NCBI RefSeq assembly: GCF_018420025.1
Contig: NZ_JAEDAM010000069.1
Coordinates: forward strand, 1-6,866
DNA length: 6,866 nt
From: Candidatus Vampirococcus lugosii
GTDB lineage: Bacteria > Patescibacteriota > Gracilibacteria > Absconditabacterales > Absconditicoccaceae
Direction: 5' to 3'
Under the pieces are notes generated by a model, which saw only the letters and a list, made by a program, of their open reading frames with translations, had not been told where the DNA came from and made no database searches. The translations under genes were made by a program, and so were the position numbers. Positions 1 through 6,866 of this stretch are shown in pieces. Every line of letters begins with the position of its first letter. The first letter of the stretch is position 1.

Positions 1-132
1 CATTTTTGAGAAGAAGAATACAAAGAACTTGCAAAATATAGTGAAGAAATAGGTATAGATTTTCTTTCTACTCCTTTTGATTTAGATGCAGTTGATTTTT
101 TAGATCCTTTGATGAAATATTTTCTTTTTTAG
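1..132 (+). pseudogene. NeuB/PseI-family nonulosonic-acid (sialic/pseudaminic acid) synthase, internal fragment entering from the left edge
   Basis: Frame 1 with TGA=Gly reads HFGEEEYKELAKYSEEIGIDFLSTPFDLDAVDFLDPLM. This is the conserved GI-x-F-x-STPFD...VDFL block from the middle of NeuB-family synthases. Similarity stops near 114, followed by KYFLF and TAG at 130-132. Confidence 0.6.
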
Positions 133-195: not shown

Positions 196-1818
196 TTATA
201 ATTTATTTAAAATATCTAAGAATTTATTTATTCAATTTTCAAGATTATAAGAAAGCATTTTTTTATTTATTACTTTTCTTTCATCATAATTAAATATAAG
301 ATTTTTTATCTCTTCTTCAAGTTTAGTTTTATCTATAAAATTCACAAGTCAAAGATTTTTGATACATCAAGAAAAATTTGAAAAAGTATGATGCATTTCT
401 TGTTCATTTTGAGATATAGAGATTGTAGGAACTCATATACAAGTTATCTCATAAATTGTTCTTCCATTACTTGTAAGCATAATATCTGCATTTTGTATTA
501 CTTCTCACATATTCGATATATTTTCAAGTATTTTTATATTTTGTTTTCATTTTGTTATATTTTCTAGTTTTTTTTTATGAGAATATCAAGGTCATAGAAT
601 TATATTTATATTTCAATTATAATTTATATTTTCAAGTGATTGTAAATATATACAAGTAAGATTATTTGGATCTGTTCAACCACAACTTATAGTTATATTT
701 TTTACATCTTTTGTTATTTTTTTCTTTTCTTGATTTATAATATCATCTCTAAGTATTATATATTTATGTCCATTTAGTATATTTTCTTTATCATCAGTAA
801 ATTCATAAAGTTCATTTATAGTAAAATCTGCATAATTTTTTCATTCTCATAAATCTTCAAAATTTATAACTTTTAGTTCATTTTCTTTCAAACTATCAAT
901 ATATTTTTTTGAAGTATCAAGTATATCATTTATTATTATTTTTATATTTTTTTCTTTTAAAAATTTTATTAAATATTCTTCATTGTCATATTCTATAATT
1001 TCATAAAAATTTTCATTTATTATTTTTTTTGCAAGGTTATTTCATTTTTTTGTAAAAAATGTTGGCTTTGTATTTAGGTTTAATGCTATATGTAATTGTC
1101 TATATATATGTCATAATCAAGTTTTATTATTTCAAATTACATTTATAGCAATATTTTTTTGGTTTAATAAACTTTCAACATTCACCCAGTCTGCATAAGT
1201 ATCTATATCAGTAGATTCTTGCTCTCATGTTATCACAAAATCACAAGAGTTTATATTTATTCTTGTGTTGTTTGTTAGAAAATAATCTTTTTTAACTCAT
1301 ATGATTGCTCAAGTTTCTACATATTTTTTTGGTAAAAATTGCCTATTAACTCTTTTTTCAAAATCTGCAATTATCTTTCAATTTTCTTCTTTCCAGTAAA
1401 GATGAGTTTCTTCTCTTAGACTCATAAAAGAATCCTTTCAACTTTCTATAAAGTTTTTAATAGCTTTTTCTATAGTTTTTAACTTTATCAAAGGTGATGT
1501 TGGTTGAAAAGTTATTATATAATCATAATTATTATATTTTTCACATACATCAAATATTACGGGATCCAAAGGAGTTGCATCATCTGATAAACTTTCTGGT
1601 CTATTATGAATAATTATTTCTTTACTTTTACAATTATTTTTTATTTCTTCACTTTCAGTAGTTAAAACTATATCATCAATTATTTTTGATGATTTTAAAT
1701 TATCTATTGTATAGTGTATAAGAGGTTTTCAATTAAGAGGTTTTATATTCTTTTTTGGAATTCATTTACTACTTCATCTTGCCGGTATAATTGCAAGTAT
1801 TTTTTTGTTATTGTACAT
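196..1818 (-). CDS. Fusion protein of 540 aa: N-terminal CMP-nonulosonic acid synthetase (cytidylyltransferase, PseF/NeuA-like) plus C-terminal PseG-like UDP-sugar hydrolase (GT28-type domain)
   Basis: ATG 1818..1816, TAA 198..196, no TAA/TAG in between; about 24 in-frame TGA read as Gly. N-terminus: [38 protein letters not shown] ... ITFQPTSPL ... RVNRQFLPKKYVETGAI (cytidylyltransferase motifs). From about residue 230: VIGNNKTGLGHIYRQLHIAL ... ISCGGTDPNN ... NADIMLTSNGRTIYEITCIGVPTISI (PseG/SpsG-like motifs). An upstream in-frame stop at 1833..1831 fixes the start. Confidence 0.85.
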
Positions 1819-1854
1819 TATATATAATATTTAGTAGAGTCAAAACATAACACT

Positions 1855-2062: not shown

Positions 2063-2281
2063 ATGTGGACATATTTTATTGAAAAAAATCATATTGTTTT
2101 ATTGAAAAATAAAAAATCTATATGTTTCTTAGTACCTAAAGTTGCAAATACTTCAATAAGTTTTGCATTAGCTGATATCTTAGATATTGATACTGAAGGT
2201 AAAAGTATAAGAAAAATATTACCTCGCATACAAAAGCAAGAAGTTACAAAAAATTACAATAACTATAATAAATTTTTATAA
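2063..2281 (+). pseudogene. Sulfotransferase-like N-terminal stub (72-codon ORF; only about the first 45 codons look family-like)
   Basis: MWTYFIEKNHIVLLKNKKSICFLVPKVANTSISFALADIL carries the N-terminal PKxxxTS (PAPS 5'-phosphate-binding loop) pattern of bacterial sulfotransferase-family proteins, which are normally over 200 aa. The ORF ends at TAA 2279-2281 and overlaps, in another frame, the start of glycosyltransferase homology. Confidence 0.35.
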
Positions 2282-2351
2282 ACTTTTCCAAAGAACTTGA
2301 CAGATAAAAAAATATTGTAGAAAAAATAATATAGACAAATCTCTTTCTTTT

Positions 2352-3215
2352 ATGGAGGAAGCAAATTTTCCAAATATTTTAAGTAAATATTTTTGAAGCA
2401 AATCAAAAATTGTTATAAGTATTAGAACAAATATTAATAAAAAGTCTTGATTATATAAAAAATTAATCAAATTTTTATACCCAAAAGCAGATTTTATAAC
2501 ACCAATAGTTAAGGAATGATCTCAAAATCTTATACAAAACTATTGAATTAATCCTAAAAGAATTCAAAATATATATAATATGTTTGATATAAAAGTAATA
2601 CAAGAAAAATCAAAAGAAGATTTATGAGACTATCAAGAATTGTTTAATAACTGAAAATATACATTTATAAATATATGAAAATTTATCAATGCTAAAAATC
2701 AAAAACTTTTACTTAATGCTTTTGATAAATTTCATCAGAAAAATCCAAATACTCAACTTATAATACTATGAGATGGGGAATTAAAAGAAGAATTGAAAAA
2801 TCAAAGAAAATCTTTATCTTCAAAAGAAGACATTTACTTTTTATGAGTTCATGAAAACCCTTATAAATTTTTGGCAAATTCTGATGCTTATATAAGTAGT
2901 AGTAGTTGGGAATGAATGGGTAGAGTTTTGGTAGAAGCTATGGCTTGTTGACTATCTATTATTTCTACTGATCATCCTACATGAGCAAAAGAAATTATGA
3001 AAAAAGATATTCAAAGTTTTGAAATGGTAGATTGAGTAAGTAAAGATAAATATTGAATATTAGTTCCAGTAGATGATGAAAAATCTTTAACTCAAGCAAT
3101 GCAAGATTTGTATGATGATAAAGATTTACAAGGACATTATAGTAAACAGTCAAAATTGAGAGCAAAAGATTTTGATGTTGAAAATATTATAAATGAATGG
3201 GAAAATGTTTTATAA
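2352..3215 (+). CDS. GT-B fold glycosyltransferase (family 1/4), 5'-truncated; frame open from 2211, first ATG at 2352
   Basis: Table 25 translation: MEEANFPNILSKYFGSKSKIVISIRTN...LYPKADFITPIVKEGSQNLIQNYGINPKRIQNIYN...YTFINIGKFINAKNQKLLLNAF...QLIILGDGEL...SSSSWEGMGRVLVEAMACGLSIISTD...GILVPVDDEKSL, ending TAA 3213-3215. The EGxG...EAMAxG motif has TGA at the Gly positions. Homology continues upstream of the ATG to about 2270 (FYKLFQRTGQIKKYCRKNNIDKSLSF) without a start codon. The glycine-rich first beta-alpha-beta unit of the N-domain is absent. Confidence 0.75.
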
Positions 3216-3287: not shown

Positions 3288-4532
3288 ATGACAGATAAAT
3301 TAAAAGAATATATACAAAAAGTTATTATAAGACAAAAATATTTAAAAGATTTAGAAAATTTTTGTTTTGCTCCATTTATAAAAATTATTGTATGAGCAAG
3401 AAGAGTTTGAAAAAGTTTTTATCTTTTTTCTATTATAAAAAAATTATTAGAATTAAATAAATTAAAAGAAAATCAAATTTTTTATATAAACAAAGAATGG
3501 CTTGAATATGATGATATTCAAGATTATAAAGATTTAAATAATTATTTTTTGAAATGGAAAAAAGAAAATAAAGTATGAAATAATTTTTTCTTGTGAATTG
3601 ATGAAGTGCAAGAAATAAAAGATTGGCAAAAATTTATACTTTCTATTTGGAGTAGTTATCCACAAAGTATTATTTTTATTACTTGATCAAATTCAAAATT
3701 ATTATCAAAAGATATATGAACAAATTTAAGATGAAGATATATTTCCAAAAAAATTTTTCCTCTTTCTTTAAATGAATTTAGTTTATTTTCAAATAAAAAT
3801 ATAGATAACGAATTATTATTTGAATATATAAATTATTGATGATTACCTGCAATTAATTTTATTGATGATTTAAATATAAAATTAGAATATTTAAAATGAG
3901 TTTATAATACTATTTTTGTAAAAGATTTACTTGAATATGAAAATATAAGAAATACTAATTTACTCAAAAATATACATAAATTTTTATTTAAAGAATTTTG
4001 AAATTTGATTAATTCTAAAAATATTTCAAATTTTTTAAAAAAAGAAAATATAAAAACATCAATTGAAACTATATTAAATTATATGGAATTTAGTTTTAAT
4101 TCTTTTCTTTTTGATGAAGTTAGTAGATATGATATTAGATGAAAAAAACTTTTTGAAATAACAAAAAAAATATATTCTTTTGATCTTGGAATAAGAAATA
4201 GTATTGTATGAATAAATTTACAAAATGATATTTGATGAATTTATGAAAATTTAGTTTATAATCATTTTATTTCAAATTGATTTAATGTATTTGTATGAAT
4301 ACTGTGAGAAAAAGAAATTGATTTTATAGCTGAAAAATCTTGAAAAAAAATATATATTCAAGTAGCTTATTTATTATCTGATGAAAAAGTTATTGATAGA
4401 GAATTTTGAAATCTTATGAAAATCAAAGATTGATGGGAAAAAATAGTTATTTCAAGTGATAATTTATTTGTAAATAATTATGAATGAATAAAACATTATA
4501 ATATTTTGGATTGGTTGCAAAATATGGAATAA
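3288..4532 (+). CDS. AAA+ superfamily ATPase of the COG1373 type (AAA_14 N-domain plus DUF4143-like C-domain), 414 aa, intact
   Basis: ATG 3288, TAA 4530-4532, length divisible by 3, about 22 in-frame TGA. Walker A IVGARRVGKSF has both Gly encoded by TGA (3393-3395, 3408-3410). Walker B is FFLGIDEVQEIKDW. Further family motifs: ITGSNSKLLSKDIGTNLRGRY, YINYGGLPAI, IYSFDLGIRNSI, GGIYENLVYNHF, EIDFIAEKSGKKIYIQV. Confidence 0.9.
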
Positions 4533-4709
4533 TTTGATTTATTTTTTGAAATATATATATTAGTTGTAAGTTTTTAAACAGTTAAGTTTTATACAATGAA
4601 ATTTTATTCAAAACTATTTAATTGTTTAGAAATATATATATAAATAATTTAATCTTGTATAAAATAAAAAAAAATATATATATAATATTTTATAAAATAA
4701 TTTTTAATA

Positions 4710-5105
4710 ATGAAAAATAATTTAATATATATTCACAATATAAAAGTTTATAAATATAATAAAACTTATTATACAAATAGAGCTTGGATATTTAATGAGT
4801 TTTCTAAAAATTATAATATAAAACTATATTGTAAAACTCAACTTGAAGCTATGAGTGTTTGAGTCGTTCCAATATGTGCTGATGAAGGTTGAACTTATAG
4901 AACAATAGATAATTATTATAATGGATCGTTATTCAAAAAACTTGATTAGAAAGCTTTGGCAAAAAATATTGATATGCTGTATGATAAACCTGAATTGTAT
5001 GAGGATTTGAAACAAAATGCACTTAAATATATACAAGAGTTATCTTTGGAAAAACAAGTAAAGAAAATGAGTAAAACTATAAATAATTTTTATAATTTAA
5101 AATAA
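4710..5105 (+). pseudogene. Glycosyltransferase family 1 remnant: N-terminal ~43 codons joined directly to the C-terminal ~85 codons, with an in-frame TAG
   Basis: MKNNLIYIHNIKVYKYNKTYYTNRAWIFNEFSKNYNIKLYCKTQ is followed immediately by LEAMSVGVVPICADEGGTYRTIDNYYNGSLFKKLD (the EAMAxGxPV...G motif, normally ~250 residues further in). Then TAG at 4947-4949, then in the same frame KALAKNIDMLYDKPELYEDLKQNALKYIQELSLEKQVKKMSKTINNFYNLK and TAA at 5103-5105. Confidence 0.6.
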
Positions 5106-5281
5106 GAAAAATGAATATAATTAAAAAAATCTTTTCAAGATTATATATAGCTTATGAAACAATTTAAATCAGAAATAGAGAAAATAAATGATTTACTTCA
5201 TAAACATAGTCTTATAGATCCAGAGATTGATTTAGTAAAATATTGGTGATATGATAAAATTTAGTATTAAATTATTCTCTA

Positions 5282-5322
5282 ATCTTAACAACTTCTTTTT
5301 TAAGTTTTAGTAAACTTTTATA
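5282..5322. repeat. 41-bp perfect direct repeat, copy 1
   Basis: ATCTTAACAACTTCTTTTTTAAGTTTTAGTAAACTTTTATA is identical to 6296-6336. The left boundary is sharp, with unrelated flanks. The right flank shows only weak AT-rich resemblance. Confidence 0.95.
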
Positions 5323-5518
5323 GTTAATTTTCTATCAACACTTTTATTAAAAATACTTGATTTTTTATCAATCCTATGGAAGTAAAGTATAGAAACAAAA
5401 AAGATGTTTATCTCATACCAGCTTGCTTGGTAAGTTTTATAAACCTTTAATTTTTTCTTGATTTTAAATATATAATCATTATATTTCTTTTAGTTGTATT
5501 TTTTAACCACTTATAGAA

Positions 5519-6134
5519 ATGAAATATATAAATATTCAAAAAAACTAAAAGAATTAAAGATTTTTTCAACTCAAGATTTAAAATTACTTGATGATAATTA
5601 TGATAAGTCAAAAATTTTTAAGTGGAAAAAAGCTTGATATATAAAATAAATTATAAGATGATATTATATATTATCTGATATTCATATAAATGAAAGTTTG
5701 CTTTATTTTGCATCAAATAAGATCTATCAACCAAGTTATATATCTTTGGAAAGTGCTTTTTCATACTATGGGATTATTCCTGAACAAGTATTTACTATAA
5801 ATTGAGTAAGCACAAAAAAGACAAATTATTTTAAAACAGATTTTTGAGTATTTAATTATAAAAAAATAAATCCAAAACTATTTTTCTGATATAATATAAT
5901 TTCTTTAAAAGAAAATAAAGTTCTTATTGCAAGTTTAGAAAAGGCTATATTAGATTACTTTTATTTGTATGATAATATAAAAAGCACTGTAGATTTTGAA
6001 TATTTAAGATGGAACAAAGACATACTAAAAAAAAATTAGATATTGATAAATTAAAAAAATATTGAAGTTTAATTAAAATAAAAATTATAAACAAAAGAAT
6101 AGATTTACTTCTTAAATATATAAATAAAAGATAA
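5519..6134 (+). pseudogene. abiEi: AbiEi-family antitoxin (type IV TA / abortive infection AbiE), disrupted by two homopolymer frameshifts and one nonsense codon
   Basis: Reading across three frames:
- MKYINIQK from ATG 5519.
- After a frameshift in the A7 run at 5538-5544: KLKELKIFSTQDLKLLDDNYDKSKIFKWKKAGYIK, TAA at 5647-5649, then IIRGYYILSDIHINESLLYFASNKIYQPSYISLESAFSYYGIIPEQVFTINGVSTKKTNYFKTDFGVFNYKKINPKLFFGYN...IASLEKAILDYFYLY...LRWNKDILKK.
- After a frameshift in the A9 run at 6027-6035: LDIDKLKKYGSLIKIKIINKRIDLLLKYINKR, TAA at 6132-6134.
The PSYISLESA-x-SYYG-x-IPE block is the family hallmark as I remember it. Confidence 0.75.
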
Positions 6135-6135
6135 T

Positions 6136-6279
6136 GAAAACTTAAAAGAAAAATTAAATGAATTTACAAAAAATCAAAACCTTGAAAAAATAGCTCAAGA
6201 TGTAAAGCCTTTTTTAATAAATCAAGATGAGATATATAGAGTTATCAATTTTCAAGATTTTATTGATAGTTTAAAATAA
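6136..6279 (+). pseudogene. AbiEii/AbiGii-family nucleotidyltransferase toxin, 3'-terminal remnant (~47 codons)
   Basis: An ATG at 6134-6136 overlaps the antitoxin stop (TAATG), the typical coupled start, but reads only MKT-stop. In the next frame, ENLKEKLNEFTKNQNLEKIAQDVKPFLINQDEIYRVINFQDFIDSLK (TAA 6277-6279) resembles the extreme C-terminus of AbiEii toxins (D-V-x-P-F-l motif). The roughly 200-plus residue nucleotidyltransferase core is missing. Confidence 0.5.
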
Positions 6280-6295
6280 CCACTACCCTTTTTTT

Positions 6296-6336
6296 ATCTT
6301 AACAACTTCTTTTTTAAGTTTTAGTAAACTTTTATA
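6296..6336. repeat. 41-bp perfect direct repeat, copy 2
   Basis: Identical to 5282-5322. It lies 16 bp downstream of the flippase stop codon (6354..6352). Confidence 0.95.
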
Positions 6337-6351
6337 ATTTATAATCAAAAA

Positions 6352-6866
6352 TTATAATCAAAATATAGCAAAAGCTATCATCAAGTAAAATAAATTTTCA
6401 TATCCTGCACTATCTGTATATTCAAAAAAGTTTCATTTCAAAACATATAGTATAGTTCATATACAAACAAAATATAATAAATTTCAAAATATAAATCATC
6501 TATAAAGTTTTATAGGGTTTTTCTTATATATGTAGATAAATGAAAATAAAAAGATTATAAAACAAGCTATGATACTTGATATAACTGCTCCATATACTCA
6601 TATAAAAAGTATCAAAGCTCCATTTATGAGAATATTTACAAGTACAACAAAAGCTATTATCTTTACTCTATTTTTAGGTTTTCCATAAGCATTTATCACT
6701 ACAAAATTTAACTGAAATAAGACTTTTAGAACCAAAAATAAAGCTATTATCACTTGCAAGAAATATAGTGTCTTGATAATCTTGAAATATAATTCATTCT
6801 TTTTTAAGAACTGTTTCAAAGCTAATATATGAATTTTTTTTAAGTTTTGTTGAAAGTTCAAGTTTG
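6352..6866 (-). CDS. Polysaccharide/O-unit flippase of the Wzx/MOP superfamily, C-terminal part (5' end lies beyond the right edge)
   Basis: With TGA=Gly the minus frame is open from the window edge to TAA 6354..6352: ...NFVVINAYGKPKNRVKIIAFVVLVNILINGALILFIGVYGAVISSIIACFIIFLFSFIYIYKKNPIKLYRGFIFGNLLYFVCIGTILYVLKGNFFEYTDSAGYENLFYLMIAFAIFGL. It has successive hydrophobic helices and a G-x-x-GA-x-I-S motif typical of flippase C-terminal halves. The 87-aa track ORF is an internal piece of this gene. Confidence 0.55.

What the first reader, a model, noticed from the sequence alone, without database searches (positions are those of the whole stretch)
5282..6336. Perfect 41-bp direct repeat brackets a ~1 kb cassette carrying the AbiE toxin-antitoxin remnants
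ATCTTAACAACTTCTTTTTTAAGTTTTAGTAAACTTTTATA occurs at 5282-5322 and again at 6296-6336, which is 1014 bp apart and in the same orientation. The identity is perfect and the left boundary is abrupt. Copy 2 lies 16 bp past the stop of the flippase gene. Everything between the copies is AbiE-related or unassignable.

A 41-bp identical core flanking foreign-looking cargo at the 3' end of a housekeeping-type gene resembles attL/attR scars of site-specific integration. It could also reflect a duplication created when the cassette recombined in. No integrase is present, so the element would now be immobile unless served in trans. Recombination between the copies would excise the cassette precisely.
Basis: partly seen in the sequence, partly recalled or inferred. 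Interest (0 to 1): 0.65.

Follow-up and report, generated by a model that had tools for sequence, protein, structure and literature searches.

The report
Duplicated flippase gene end brackets decayed defence modules
The 41-base repeat is the last stretch of a sugar-flippase gene, copied each time a small anti-phage gene module was inserted at that gene's end; here it brackets the decayed remains of two such modules in an uncultivated bacterium that reads TGA as glycine.

Summary
An exact 41-mer occurs at 5282-5322 and 6296-6336, far beyond chance. The window uses genetic code 25 (TGA = Gly). On the minus strand the 41-mer encodes YKSLLKLKKEVVKI, the conserved native C-terminus of the adjacent Wzx-type flippase. 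In the window a TGA(Gly)->TAA change cuts that tail off, so copy 2 only looks intergenic. Copy 1 is a duplicated gene end, as at an attL/attR pair. Two related contigs carry three copies each, separating interchangeable modules: a PDC-S01 (AAA_14/DUF4143) ATPase, AbiEi-AbiEii, or a second ATPase. The window's 1014-bp segment is a decayed two-module array, with about 1.9 kb deleted, the middle repeat lost, and frameshifts and a nonsense codon in abiEi. In a distant lineage (L083) the last 29 nt of its own flippase gene bracket a PDC-S01 ATPase, starting at the same K-K-E codons. Three other lineages have empty, single-copy sites. No recombinase gene is seen anywhere. The repeat is not a dispersed family, terminator, attC or dif site. 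Closest known kind: tandem accretion of integrase-less (CIME-like) islands at a gene's 3' end.

The parts
6296..6336 (-). Repeat copy 2 (gene-proximal). This is the native 3' coding end of the Wzx-type flippase and encodes YKSLLKLKKEVVKI on the minus strand.
   Evidence: In L077 the orthologous 511-aa flippase ORF reads through this sequence. Distant homologues share the NYK..l..lKKE.k.irK tail.
5282..5322 (-). Repeat copy 1 (distal). This is a duplicated flippase 3' end. The extended unit 5275-5328 encodes flippase residues 493-510, followed by its own in-frame stop (KIRE*).
   Evidence: tblastn of L077 flippase aa 493-510 against window 5328-5275 gives 94% identity. Frame analysis is, and the profile hit 5275-5321 is.
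6352..6354 (-). Premature stop in the flippase (TAA). The orthologue has TGA = Gly at this codon. It cuts off the last 22 codons of the ancestral frame (6286-6351), whose own stop is TAG at 6283-6285.
   Evidence: Codon-by-codon comparison of window and L077. TGA = Gly shown.
6355..6747 (-). 3' fragment of a Polysacc_synt (Wzx/MOP) flippase gene, equivalent to residues ~358-488 of a 511-aa protein. Homology stops at about 6747, and 6748-6866 is unrelated.
   Evidence: blastn of window 6289-6747 against L077 2913-3373 gives 91.8%. Pfam PF01943 scores 42.8 bits on the L077 orthologue. Only query residues 37-170 align; tblastn.
5323..5372 (+). Leader/promoter region of a PDC-S01 (AAA_14/DUF4143) ATPase module. 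It directly follows copy 1, as in L004 and L077.
   Evidence: Window 5282-5372 matches L004 92-182 and L077 3-93 at 90.1%.
5373..5450 (+). Remnant of the 3' end of that ATPase gene (stop TAA at 5448-5450). About 1129 nt and a further ~96 nt of the gene are deleted.
   Evidence: Alignment blocks. tblastn of L004 ATPase aa 362-418 matches window 5373-5447.
5449..5458 (.). Junction where the middle repeat copy (present in L004 at 1495-1535 and in L077 at 1406-1446) is missing. The window has a 42-nt deletion relative to L004.
5459..6134 (+). abiE promoter region plus an abiEi pseudogene (ATG at 5519, stop at 6132-6134). It carries two 1-nt deletions in poly-A runs (after 5537 and after 6030) and an in-frame TAA at 5647-5649.
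   Evidence: NCBIfam NF047376 TAA_AbiEi at E 2.9e-10. 94.6% aa identity to the intact 205-aa AbiEi of L004. Indels listed.
6124..6276 (+). abiEii remnant comprising the last 51 codons. 621 nt of the gene are deleted.
   Evidence: 90% aa identity to residues 207-257 of L004 AbiEii, which is PF08843 at 77.5 bits.

Best explanation
The 41-mer is the 3'-terminal coding sequence of a Wzx-type polysaccharide flippase gene (minus strand). That gene end serves as an insertion site (attB-like) for small modules that carry one or two defence-type genes and no recombinase of their own. Each insertion leaves the gene end attached to the flippase and places a second copy at the far side of the insert, as in Campbell-type integration of a circular element that carries a copy of the target's 3' end. 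Repeated insertions at the gene-proximal copy build a tandem array: repeat-module-repeat-module-repeat-flippase. In the window's lineage the array was repeat - PDC-S01 ATPase - repeat - AbiEi/AbiEii - repeat(flippase end). The window holds its decayed form. Most of the ATPase gene, the middle repeat and most of abiEii are deleted, abiEi is broken, and the flippase is truncated at both ends. What remains is two identical copies 1014 bp apart. Shown: the identity of the repeat with the flippase tail, the three-copy arrays with exchangeable modules, the decay events, an independent second lineage with the same architecture at the homologous codons, and empty sites elsewhere. Inferred: that insertion is site-specific and catalysed in trans by a recombinase encoded elsewhere (CIME-like), and that the two remaining copies could still recombine to excise the segment.
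For: (1) rc(41-mer) = YKSLLKLKKEVVKI. L077's 511-aa Polysacc_synt flippase (PF01943; 91.8% nt identity to window 6289-6747) reads through the repeat to ...KIRKN*. (2) The tail is ancestral: flippases at 30-33% identity (504-514 aa) extend 20-32 aa past the window's stop, and most share the NYK..l..lKKE.k.irK motif. (3) All 8 copies keep the flippase tail frame. Six keep a nearby in-frame stop (after 2-3 codons), one (L4_92) reads on for 11 more codons and one (L77_3) is cut by the contig end. (4) L004 is R-ATPase-R-AbiEi-AbiEii-R', and L077 is R-ATPase-R-second ATPase-R-flippase. Homology between contigs starts at the repeat's edge and ends inside it. (5) The window differs from L004 only by deletions of 1129, ~96, 42, 1, 1 and 621 nt. 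(6) Independent replicate: in L083 the last 29 nt of a different flippase gene (KEIKNLRK*) recur exactly at the far end of the adjacent PDC-S01 ATPase, starting at the same K-K-E codons. The null is 20 nt or less. (7) Empty single-copy sites occur in L082, L084 and L085-88. (8) All modules are defence or defence-candidate genes: AbiE, and PDC-S01 at E down to 1e-123. (9) The repeat is absent from 596 Gb of genomes, the metagenomes and the viral contigs except for chance 22-mer hits. (10) Known precedent: integrase-less islands bounded by repeats of a gene's 3' end, stacked in tandem (PMC5704250, PMC3146451).
Against: No integrase or recombinase gene is present in the window, L004, L077 or within 10 kb either side in L083. 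No excised or circular junction has been observed. The boundaries of homology differ between copies (positions 22, 37 and 41+ on one side, and three types of extension on the other). That fits different elements with different attP arms, but it also fits untidy homologous or illegitimate events. Close relatives are only three short contigs from k=31 assemblies that break at the repeat. No close relative with an empty site was found. The outer junctions of the window's arrangement are not read-verified, and a strain-mixture chimera at the repeat cannot be excluded. Module orientation relative to the flippase differs between the two lineages.
Confidence: 0.6

Rival explanations
1. The anatomy is the same but no site-specific recombinase is involved. 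The duplicated gene end is a short portable homology patch. Modules are swapped, gained and lost by RecA-dependent recombination between repeat copies, for example after DNA uptake, with circles formed by repeat x repeat recombination re-entering by single crossover.
For: No recombinase gene was seen in any context. Homology breakpoints lie at variable positions in and around the repeat. Copies within one contig can be as similar as, or more similar than, orthologous copies: the window's R1 equals R2, while L004 and L077 orthologous copies differ at 2-3 positions. That is compatible with gene conversion.
Against: It does not explain how the first duplication arises, nor why two lineages with unrelated nucleotide sequences duplicated the same 29-30 nt starting at the same K-K-E codons. 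By general knowledge, 29-41 bp is at or below the usual lower limit for efficient homologous recombination.
Confidence: 0.2
2. The PDC-S01 gene (AAA+ ATPase fused to the DUF4143 PD-(D/E)XK-type domain) is itself a single-gene mobile element. It inserts at specific gene ends and creates 28-50 bp target duplications. AbiE merely occupies a slot in the array.
For: Three unrelated repeat sequences bracket PDC-S01 genes: the L004/L077 lineage, L083 with 29 nt, and L078 with 28 nt (null 21 nt or less). Random 1.25-kb intervals give 15 nt or less. DUF4143 is classified in the PD-(D/E)XK nuclease superfamily (PMC3424549). These genes are multi-copy in the loci.
Against: The AbiE module, which has no ATPase, is bracketed by the same repeats in L004. 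The window's intact PDC-S01 gene, L081's and three viral-contig homologues have no flanking repeats. No transposase-like activity is known for the family, and there are no terminal inverted repeats.
Confidence: 0.1
3. The repeat is kept identical because it is a functional non-coding element, such as a terminator, insulator or regulatory site, that is reused between genes. On this view it is not a scar of insertion.
For: It always lies between the end of one gene and the promoter-like leader of the next. It contains a weak AT-only hairpin (AAGTTT-TAGT-AAACTT) followed by T-rich sequence.
Against: Folding is no better than for shuffles, both as RNA and as DNA. There is no terminator-like site and no Rfam match. 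The sequence is demonstrably the flippase C-terminal coding sequence. The window has lost the middle copy, and the flanking abiE promoter region is conserved (96.6% to L004).
Confidence: 0.05
4. The arrangement is an assembly artefact. The contig is a chimera joined at a repeat shared by different strains or loci, or the 1014-bp unit is really a circle or a tandem array.
For: L001's ends overlap by 25 nt and lie inside the repeat, so the de Bruijn graph is ambiguous there. Several repeat contexts co-occur in the sister samples SRR13241708 and SRR13241709.
Against: Repeat copies are found in three independent assemblies. Both inner junctions are reproduced at 100% identity. Copy 1 sits in a 66-nt unit (5263-5328) that is homologous to L077 2905-2968 and spans the repeat's edges. 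A 1-kb circle of dead genes has no means of persisting.
Confidence: 0.05

Closest known systems
Tandem accretion of genomic islands and cis-mobilizable elements (CIMEs) at the 3' end of a target gene. Examples are ICESt1-related elements at fda in Streptococcus thermophilus and the ssrA genomic islands of Dehalococcoides (PMC5704250, PMC3146451).
   Same: Direct repeats consist of the target gene's 3' end. The gene-proximal copy keeps the gene complete. Several islands are stacked head to tail and separated by further copies. Many islands lack integration genes, and the elements decay in place.
   Different: The modules here are tiny (about 1.4-1.5 kb, one or two genes) and are all defence-type. 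No integrase-bearing member of the family has been seen at all. The target is a protein-coding flippase gene in a code-25 candidate-phyla bacterium. No link to conjugation is evident.
Integron gene cassettes and integrase-less cassette arrays (CALINs).
   Same: Arrays of small one- or two-gene units are separated by a recurring short sequence. TA systems are typical cargo, and arrays can exist without a nearby integrase.
   Different: The repeat has no attC-like imperfect palindrome or single-strand fold and no RYYYAAC/GTTRRRY core sites by inspection. It is derived from the neighbouring gene's coding end, and the modules carry their own promoter-like leaders.
Xer-dependent elements (IMEX) and pdif modules of Acinetobacter plasmids.
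   Same: Small modules without their own recombinase, often TA systems, are bounded by short recombination sites and moved by a host enzyme.
   Different: The repeat does not resemble dif beyond chance (the dif sequences were taken from memory). The copies are all in direct orientation, and the site is a gene end and not a terminus site.
AbiE (AbiEi/AbiEii) type IV toxin-antitoxin / abortive-infection system.
   Same: The cargo between the copies includes an AbiEi homologue and the C-terminus of an AbiEii (PF08843) homologue in operon order, with overlapping stop and start codons.
   Different: Both genes are dead here. The repeat is not part of the AbiE module, because intact AbiE loci in L002, L003 and L081 lack it.

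Membership tests
attL/attR pair of an element integrated at the 3' end of a gene | Direct repeats flank the inserted DNA | tested here: met
   Exact 41-mer at 5282 and 6296. Three copies each in L004 and L077. A 29-mer pair in L083.
attL/attR pair of an element integrated at the 3' end of a gene | One repeat copy is the genuine 3' end of the target gene, and the other is a partial duplicate | tested here: met
   The flippase ORF reads through the repeat in L077. The tail is conserved in distant homologues. Copy 1 encodes residues 493-510.
attL/attR pair of an element integrated at the 3' end of a gene | Unoccupied sites with a single copy exist in relatives | tested here: inconclusive
   Met only for distant lineages (L082, L084, L085-88). 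No close relative with an empty site was found.
attL/attR pair of an element integrated at the 3' end of a gene | An integrase or recombinase is encoded in or next to the element | tested here: not met
   No recombinase domain in the window, L004, L077 or L083 +/-10 kb.
attL/attR pair of an element integrated at the 3' end of a gene | Excision gives a circular junction and a restored empty site | not testable with these tools
   Read data are needed. The topology of L001 is ambiguous.
Cis-mobilizable element (CIME) | Retains att sites at both ends but lacks integration and transfer genes | tested here: met
   Same evidence as above. Definition taken from PMC5704250.
Cis-mobilizable element (CIME) | Derived by decay of an ICE or IME, and mobilised in cis by an element integrated next to it | not testable with these tools
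   No ICE or IME relative was seen. Only the tandem architecture is observed.
Integron cassette / attC | attC site with an imperfect inverted repeat that folds as single-stranded DNA | tested here: not met
   ssDNA folds of the 66-68-nt units give z-scores from -0.5 to +0.2.
Integron cassette / attC | IntI integrase and attI nearby | tested here: not met
   None in any context fetched.
Dispersed intergenic repeat family (REP/MITE-like) | Many copies at unrelated intergenic sites | tested here: not met
   0 hits for the 27-nt core. 72 single chance-like hits for a degenerate 22-mer, with the second half matching at 11 of 19 or fewer. nhmmer finds copies only at module junctions. The rest of the source genome could not be searched.
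Intrinsic terminator | Stable GC-containing hairpin followed by a T run | tested here: not met
dif / Xer site (IMEX, pdif module) | 28-bp site with XerC and XerD arms | tested here: not met
   Best match is 14 of 28, with shuffle p >= 0.89. The XerD arm matches 9 of 11, p = 0.14. Reference sites were taken from memory.
AbiE type IV toxin-antitoxin system | Intact AbiEi antitoxin and AbiEii nucleotidyltransferase toxin genes | tested here: not met
   Homology is clear. However, abiEi has 2 frameshifts and 1 nonsense codon, and abiEii has lost 621 nt.
PADLOC PDC-S01 candidate defence gene | Full-length match to a PDC-S01 profile | tested here: met
   Window ATPase 3288-4529 at E 2.8e-123. L004/L077-type at 6e-68. 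L077 450-aa protein at 4.3e-123. The copy inside the repeat pair is only a remnant.

The most novel reading that the evidence does not exclude
PDC-S01 genes (AAA+ ATPase fused to a PD-(D/E)XK-type DUF4143 domain) are autonomous single-gene mobile elements in candidate-phyla bacteria. They home to the last ten or so codons of wzx flippase genes and other gene ends, generate 28-50 bp target duplications without a conventional integrase or transposase, and thereby seed defence-gene arrays in surface-polysaccharide loci.
Probability: 0.1. Interest if true: 0.8.

Novelty: new variant of a known kind. Interest (0 to 1): 0.5.

Why it matters
Mobile elements and defence islands of candidate-phyla bacteria such as Gracilibacteria are almost unexplored, and their alternative genetic code hides features from standard annotation. 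Here the key fact, that the repeat is a gene's coding end cut off by a Gly-to-stop change, is invisible under the standard code. The result identifies the 3' end of the wzx flippase gene as a recurrent docking site for very small, recombinase-less anti-phage modules (AbiE and PDC-S01) in at least two divergent lineages, at the same codons. This gives a concrete, testable att site and a set of natural occupied and empty alleles for finding the responsible recombinase. It also links phage-defence gene turnover physically to the cell-surface polysaccharide locus, which is itself a phage-receptor determinant. For annotation, it warns that repeat-bounded 'cassettes' may be decayed composites.

Tried and rejected
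- Exact 27-nt core of the repeat against genome, metagenome and viral collections gave 0 hits. The pattern was later seen to be too strict for the variant copies.
- A degenerate 22-mer gave 17 + 55 single hits in unrelated taxa. None extended into the second half of the repeat, so they were rejected as chance.
- tRNA scan, Rfam, terminator/promoter scan and RNA/DNA folding of the repeat found nothing above background.
- The attC and dif hypotheses were tested and rejected.
- The idea that the repeat belongs to the AbiE module was rejected, because L002, L003 and L081 have intact AbiE without it.
- A word-index homology search with the flippase fragment found only the query itself. The exhaustive representative search was needed.
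- The viral-contig scan for PDC-S01 relatives gave only 3 distant loci, all without flanking repeats. This is too few for a systematic test.
- A possible third degenerate copy at 5412-5452 (70% identity) turned out to be the 3' end of the ATPase remnant and not a repeat copy.
- Table-11 ORF lists are misleading for this window.
Full report
OBSERVATION. The 41-mer ATCTTAACAACTTCTTTTTTAAGTTTTAGTAAACTTTTATA occurs exactly at 5282-5322 and 6296-6336 on the same strand, 1014 nt apart. Identity ends abruptly on both sides and there is no inverted copy. In 200 order-2 Markov simulations the longest exact repeat was 25 nt or less.

GENETIC CODE. The window has 19.6% G+C and almost no long ORFs under table 11. 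Reading TGA as sense restores them: 2058 aa against 361 aa in ORFs of 80 aa or more. At the 22 TGA codons of the ATPase gene (3288-4529), five standard-code homologues have Gly in 73 of 110 aligned cells and never Trp. The gene has a single GGN codon, and the P-loop reads G-ARRV-G-KS only if TGA = Gly. This is code 25 (Gracilibacteria/Absconditabacteria), consistent with the names attached to homologues. The window is an entire 6866-bp contig of an NCBI MAG, so no further flank exists.

GENE MAP (code 25):
- 1-120: NeuB fragment.
- 199-1830 (-): cytidylyltransferase/GT28-type fusion.
- 2211-3212 (+): GT1.
- 3288-4529 (+): intact AAA_14/DUF4143 ATPase.
- 4701-5102 (+): GT1 C-terminal fragment with an internal stop.
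- 5282-5322: repeat copy 1.
- 5519-6134 (+): abiEi pseudogene (NF047376, E 2.9e-10).
- 6124-6276 (+): abiEii remnant.
- 6296-6336: repeat copy 2.
- 6355-6864 (-): an ORF whose part from 6747 downwards is flippase.

WHAT THE REPEAT IS NOT. There is no tRNA, no Rfam family and no terminator-like site. It does not fold better than shuffles as RNA or as ssDNA, so it is neither a terminator nor attC-like. Its similarity to dif sites is at chance level (reference sites from memory). It is not a dispersed family. A 27-nt core has no match in 596 Gb of species-representative genomes, the JGI metagenome contigs or IMG/VR. A degenerate 22-mer that covers all known variants gives only 72 single hits in unrelated taxa, and none continues into the rest of the repeat.

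RELATIVES. The AbiEi-like protein has hundreds of intact relatives of 205-210 aa in Gracilibacteria, Absconditabacteria and 'Altimarinota'. Three contigs are close to the window.
- L001 (Logan, SRR13241709, 1039 bp) equals window 5285-6323 at 100% identity, and its ends lie inside the two repeat copies.
- L004 (SRR23285958, 4009 bp) has repeat (92) - leader - PDC-S01 ATPase - repeat (1495) - intact abiEi - intact abiEii (PF08843) - partial repeat (2996) - another ATPase on the minus strand.
- L077 (SRR13241708, 4473 bp) has repeat (3) - the same ATPase (96.8% nt) - repeat (1406) - a different 450-aa AAA_14/DUF4143 gene - repeat (2922) - a 511-aa minus-strand gene that is 91.8% identical to window 6289-6747.

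A profile of the repeat finds two copies in the window, three in L004, three in L077, and none in six more distant loci. So the repeat punctuates a series of exchangeable modules. The slot next to the flippase holds AbiE in the window and a second ATPase in L077. AbiE's right neighbour is the flippase in the window and an ATPase in L004. Homology between the window and L004 begins exactly at the left edge of copy 1 and ends 22 nt into copy 2.

THE KEY FACT. In L077 the 511-aa gene is a Polysacc_synt (Wzx/MOP) flippase (PF01943, 42.8 bits against a cutoff of 28.2). It reads through the repeat...AFAIFGL-G-FLIINYKSLLKLKKEVVKIRKN*. The reverse complement of the 41-mer encodes YKSLLKLKKEVVKI. The window has TAA (6352-6354) where L077 has TGA (Gly), so the last 22 codons are cut off and copy 2 merely looks intergenic. 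The tail is ancestral. An exhaustive search shows that flippases at only 30-33% identity (504-514 aa) extend 20-32 residues beyond the window's stop, and their ends share the motif: NYKKFAFLKKEIKNLRK, NYKELIKLKHSIKNIRK, NYKNIILVKRELKN.... Copy 1 (extended unit 5275-5328) encodes flippase residues 493-510 at 94% identity. All eight copies in the three contigs keep this tail frame. Six of them keep an in-frame stop 2-3 codons after ...VKI, one (L4_92) reads on for 11 more codons, and one (L77_3) is cut off by the contig end. The repeat is therefore a reiterated gene 3' end, the signature of insertion at an att site inside the end of a gene.

THE CARGO IS A DECAYED TWO-MODULE ARRAY. A global alignment of window 5282-6336 with L004 92-3036 shows only deletions in the window (tblastn support):
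- 1129 nt plus about 96 nt of the ATPase gene. Its leader (5323-5372) and 3' remnant (5373-5450) remain.
- 42 nt that remove the middle repeat copy.
- Two 1-nt deletions in poly-A runs of abiEi, which also has an in-frame TAA at 5647.
- 621 nt of abiEii.

The flippase is also 5'-truncated, since homology starts at about 6747.

INDEPENDENT REPLICATE AND EMPTY SITES. In L083 (NCBI GCA_040777565.1; flippase about 31% identical, different nucleotide sequence) a PDC-S01 ATPase lies directly past the flippase. The last 29 nt of the flippase gene (KEIKNLRK* plus 1 nt; 11518-11546) recur exactly at 13002-13030, at the far end of the ATPase. This is the longest dispersed exact repeat in 21.5 kb, against a null of 20 nt or less. 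In flippase sense the duplicated segment starts at the K-K-E codons. That is the same place where the segment common to all eight copies of the window's lineage starts. In three other flippase lineages (L082, L084, L085-88) the next gene follows within 3-69 nt, no module is present, and the gene end is single-copy, with the longest match elsewhere being 12-15 nt. A third, unrelated 28-nt repeat brackets a PDC-S01 gene in L078 (null 21 nt or less). Random 1.25-kb intervals give 15 nt or less. The window's intact ATPase, L081's and three viral-contig homologues have no such repeats.

NATURE OF THE MODULES. All four ATPases match PADLOC's candidate single-gene defence family PDC-S01 (E down to 1e-123). 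DUF4143/COG1373 is listed in the PD-(D/E)XK superfamily (PMC3424549). With AbiE, every module is therefore defence-type. No recombinase domain occurs in the window, L004, L077 or within 10 kb either side in L083.

MECHANISM.
- Best supported (about 0.6): the flippase gene end is an attB-like site. Circular modules carrying a copy of it integrate by a Campbell-type event. Successive integrations build arrays (accretion), and the modules lack their own recombinase and depend on one in trans. This matches cis-mobilizable elements and the integrase-less tandem ssrA islands of Dehalococcoides (PMC5704250, PMC3146451).
- Shown: the anatomy, the origin of the repeat, module exchange, the decay, the replicate lineage and the empty sites.
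- Inferred: site-specific catalysis, the trans-acting enzyme, and present-day excisability.
- Rivals: purely homologous recombination through the short patch (0.2), self-mobility of PDC-S01 genes (0.1), a functional non-coding element (0.05) and assembly artefact (0.05).

CAVEATS. Close relatives are three short contigs from k=31 assemblies that break at the repeat. The ends of L001 imply a further copy identical over TT+R[1..33], which L077's middle copy fits exactly. Several contexts therefore co-occur in those samples, and the window's outer junctions need read-level confirmation. The rest of the source genome could not be searched.

VERDICT. I classify it as a new variant of a known kind (tandem, integrase-less islands at a gene's 3' end), found in a code-25 candidate-phyla bacterium, with very small defence modules and a conserved target in the wzx tail. 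Interest is moderate (0.5).

Noticed in passing
window, whole (e.g. 3389-3418): The window uses genetic code 25 (TGA = Gly) and has 19.6% G+C. Table-11 ORF calls fragment every gene. The ATPase gene has 22 TGA codons but only one GGN codon.
   Followed up: yes
window 6748-6866 (-): Flippase homology stops at about 6747, although the ORF stays open to the contig end. Another frame on the same strand (6677-6865) has a faint AbiEi-like hit (E 0.06). The flippase may be 5'-truncated by a further insertion.
   Followed up: partly
window 1-120 (+): A 43-aa fragment of a NeuB-family sialic/legionaminic-acid synthase (PF03102, 33.6 bits) ends in a stop, next to a cytidylyltransferase/GT28 fusion on the other strand. 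It is another gene remnant in this locus.
   Followed up: partly
window 3288-4529 and 4701-5102: An intact PDC-S01 ATPase lies between a GT1 gene and the C-terminal fragment of a different GT1 gene that carries an internal stop. There are no flanking direct repeats. The ATPase may have replaced the 5' part of that GT gene.
   Followed up: partly
window 5110-5262 and 1991-2278: Short ORFs with no family match: 5153-5262 (MKQFKSEIEK...) and a 96-aa ORF at 1991-2278. The 19 nt left of copy 1 (5263-5281) resemble the flank of L077's gene-proximal copy.
   Followed up: partly
L078 1299-1326 and 2677-2704: In an unrelated organism (GC 35%), an exact 28-nt direct repeat brackets a PDC-S01 ATPase gene, and similarity continues for about 50 nt. 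The target gene is unknown.
   Followed up: partly
L083 11550-11745: The 203-nt leader between the flippase stop and the ATPase start contains two copies of a ~45-nt motif (ACCGGYYAAATTTAAARTTYATTT.CAAAATRACYGGT), each with inverted ends. It looks operator-like.
   Followed up: no
L002 6001-7381; L003 94-1474; L079 10001-10696: AbiEi(-AbiEii) modules of more distant Gracilibacteria/'Altimarinota' also sit inside polysaccharide-biosynthesis clusters, next to a flippase in L002. They have no flanking repeats.
   Followed up: partly
L004 2996-3036 and 3014-4009 (-): The third repeat copy in L004 keeps only its first 22 nt and is fused to the 3' end of a minus-strand ATPase gene. This is probably a further insertion into the repeat, but the contig ends before its other boundary.
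   Followed up: partly
window 5323-5372 / L004 133-182: The ATPase leader contains a small inverted repeat, TTGAT-TTTTT-ATCAA, overlapping a -35-like TTGATT. It may be an operator.
   Followed up: no
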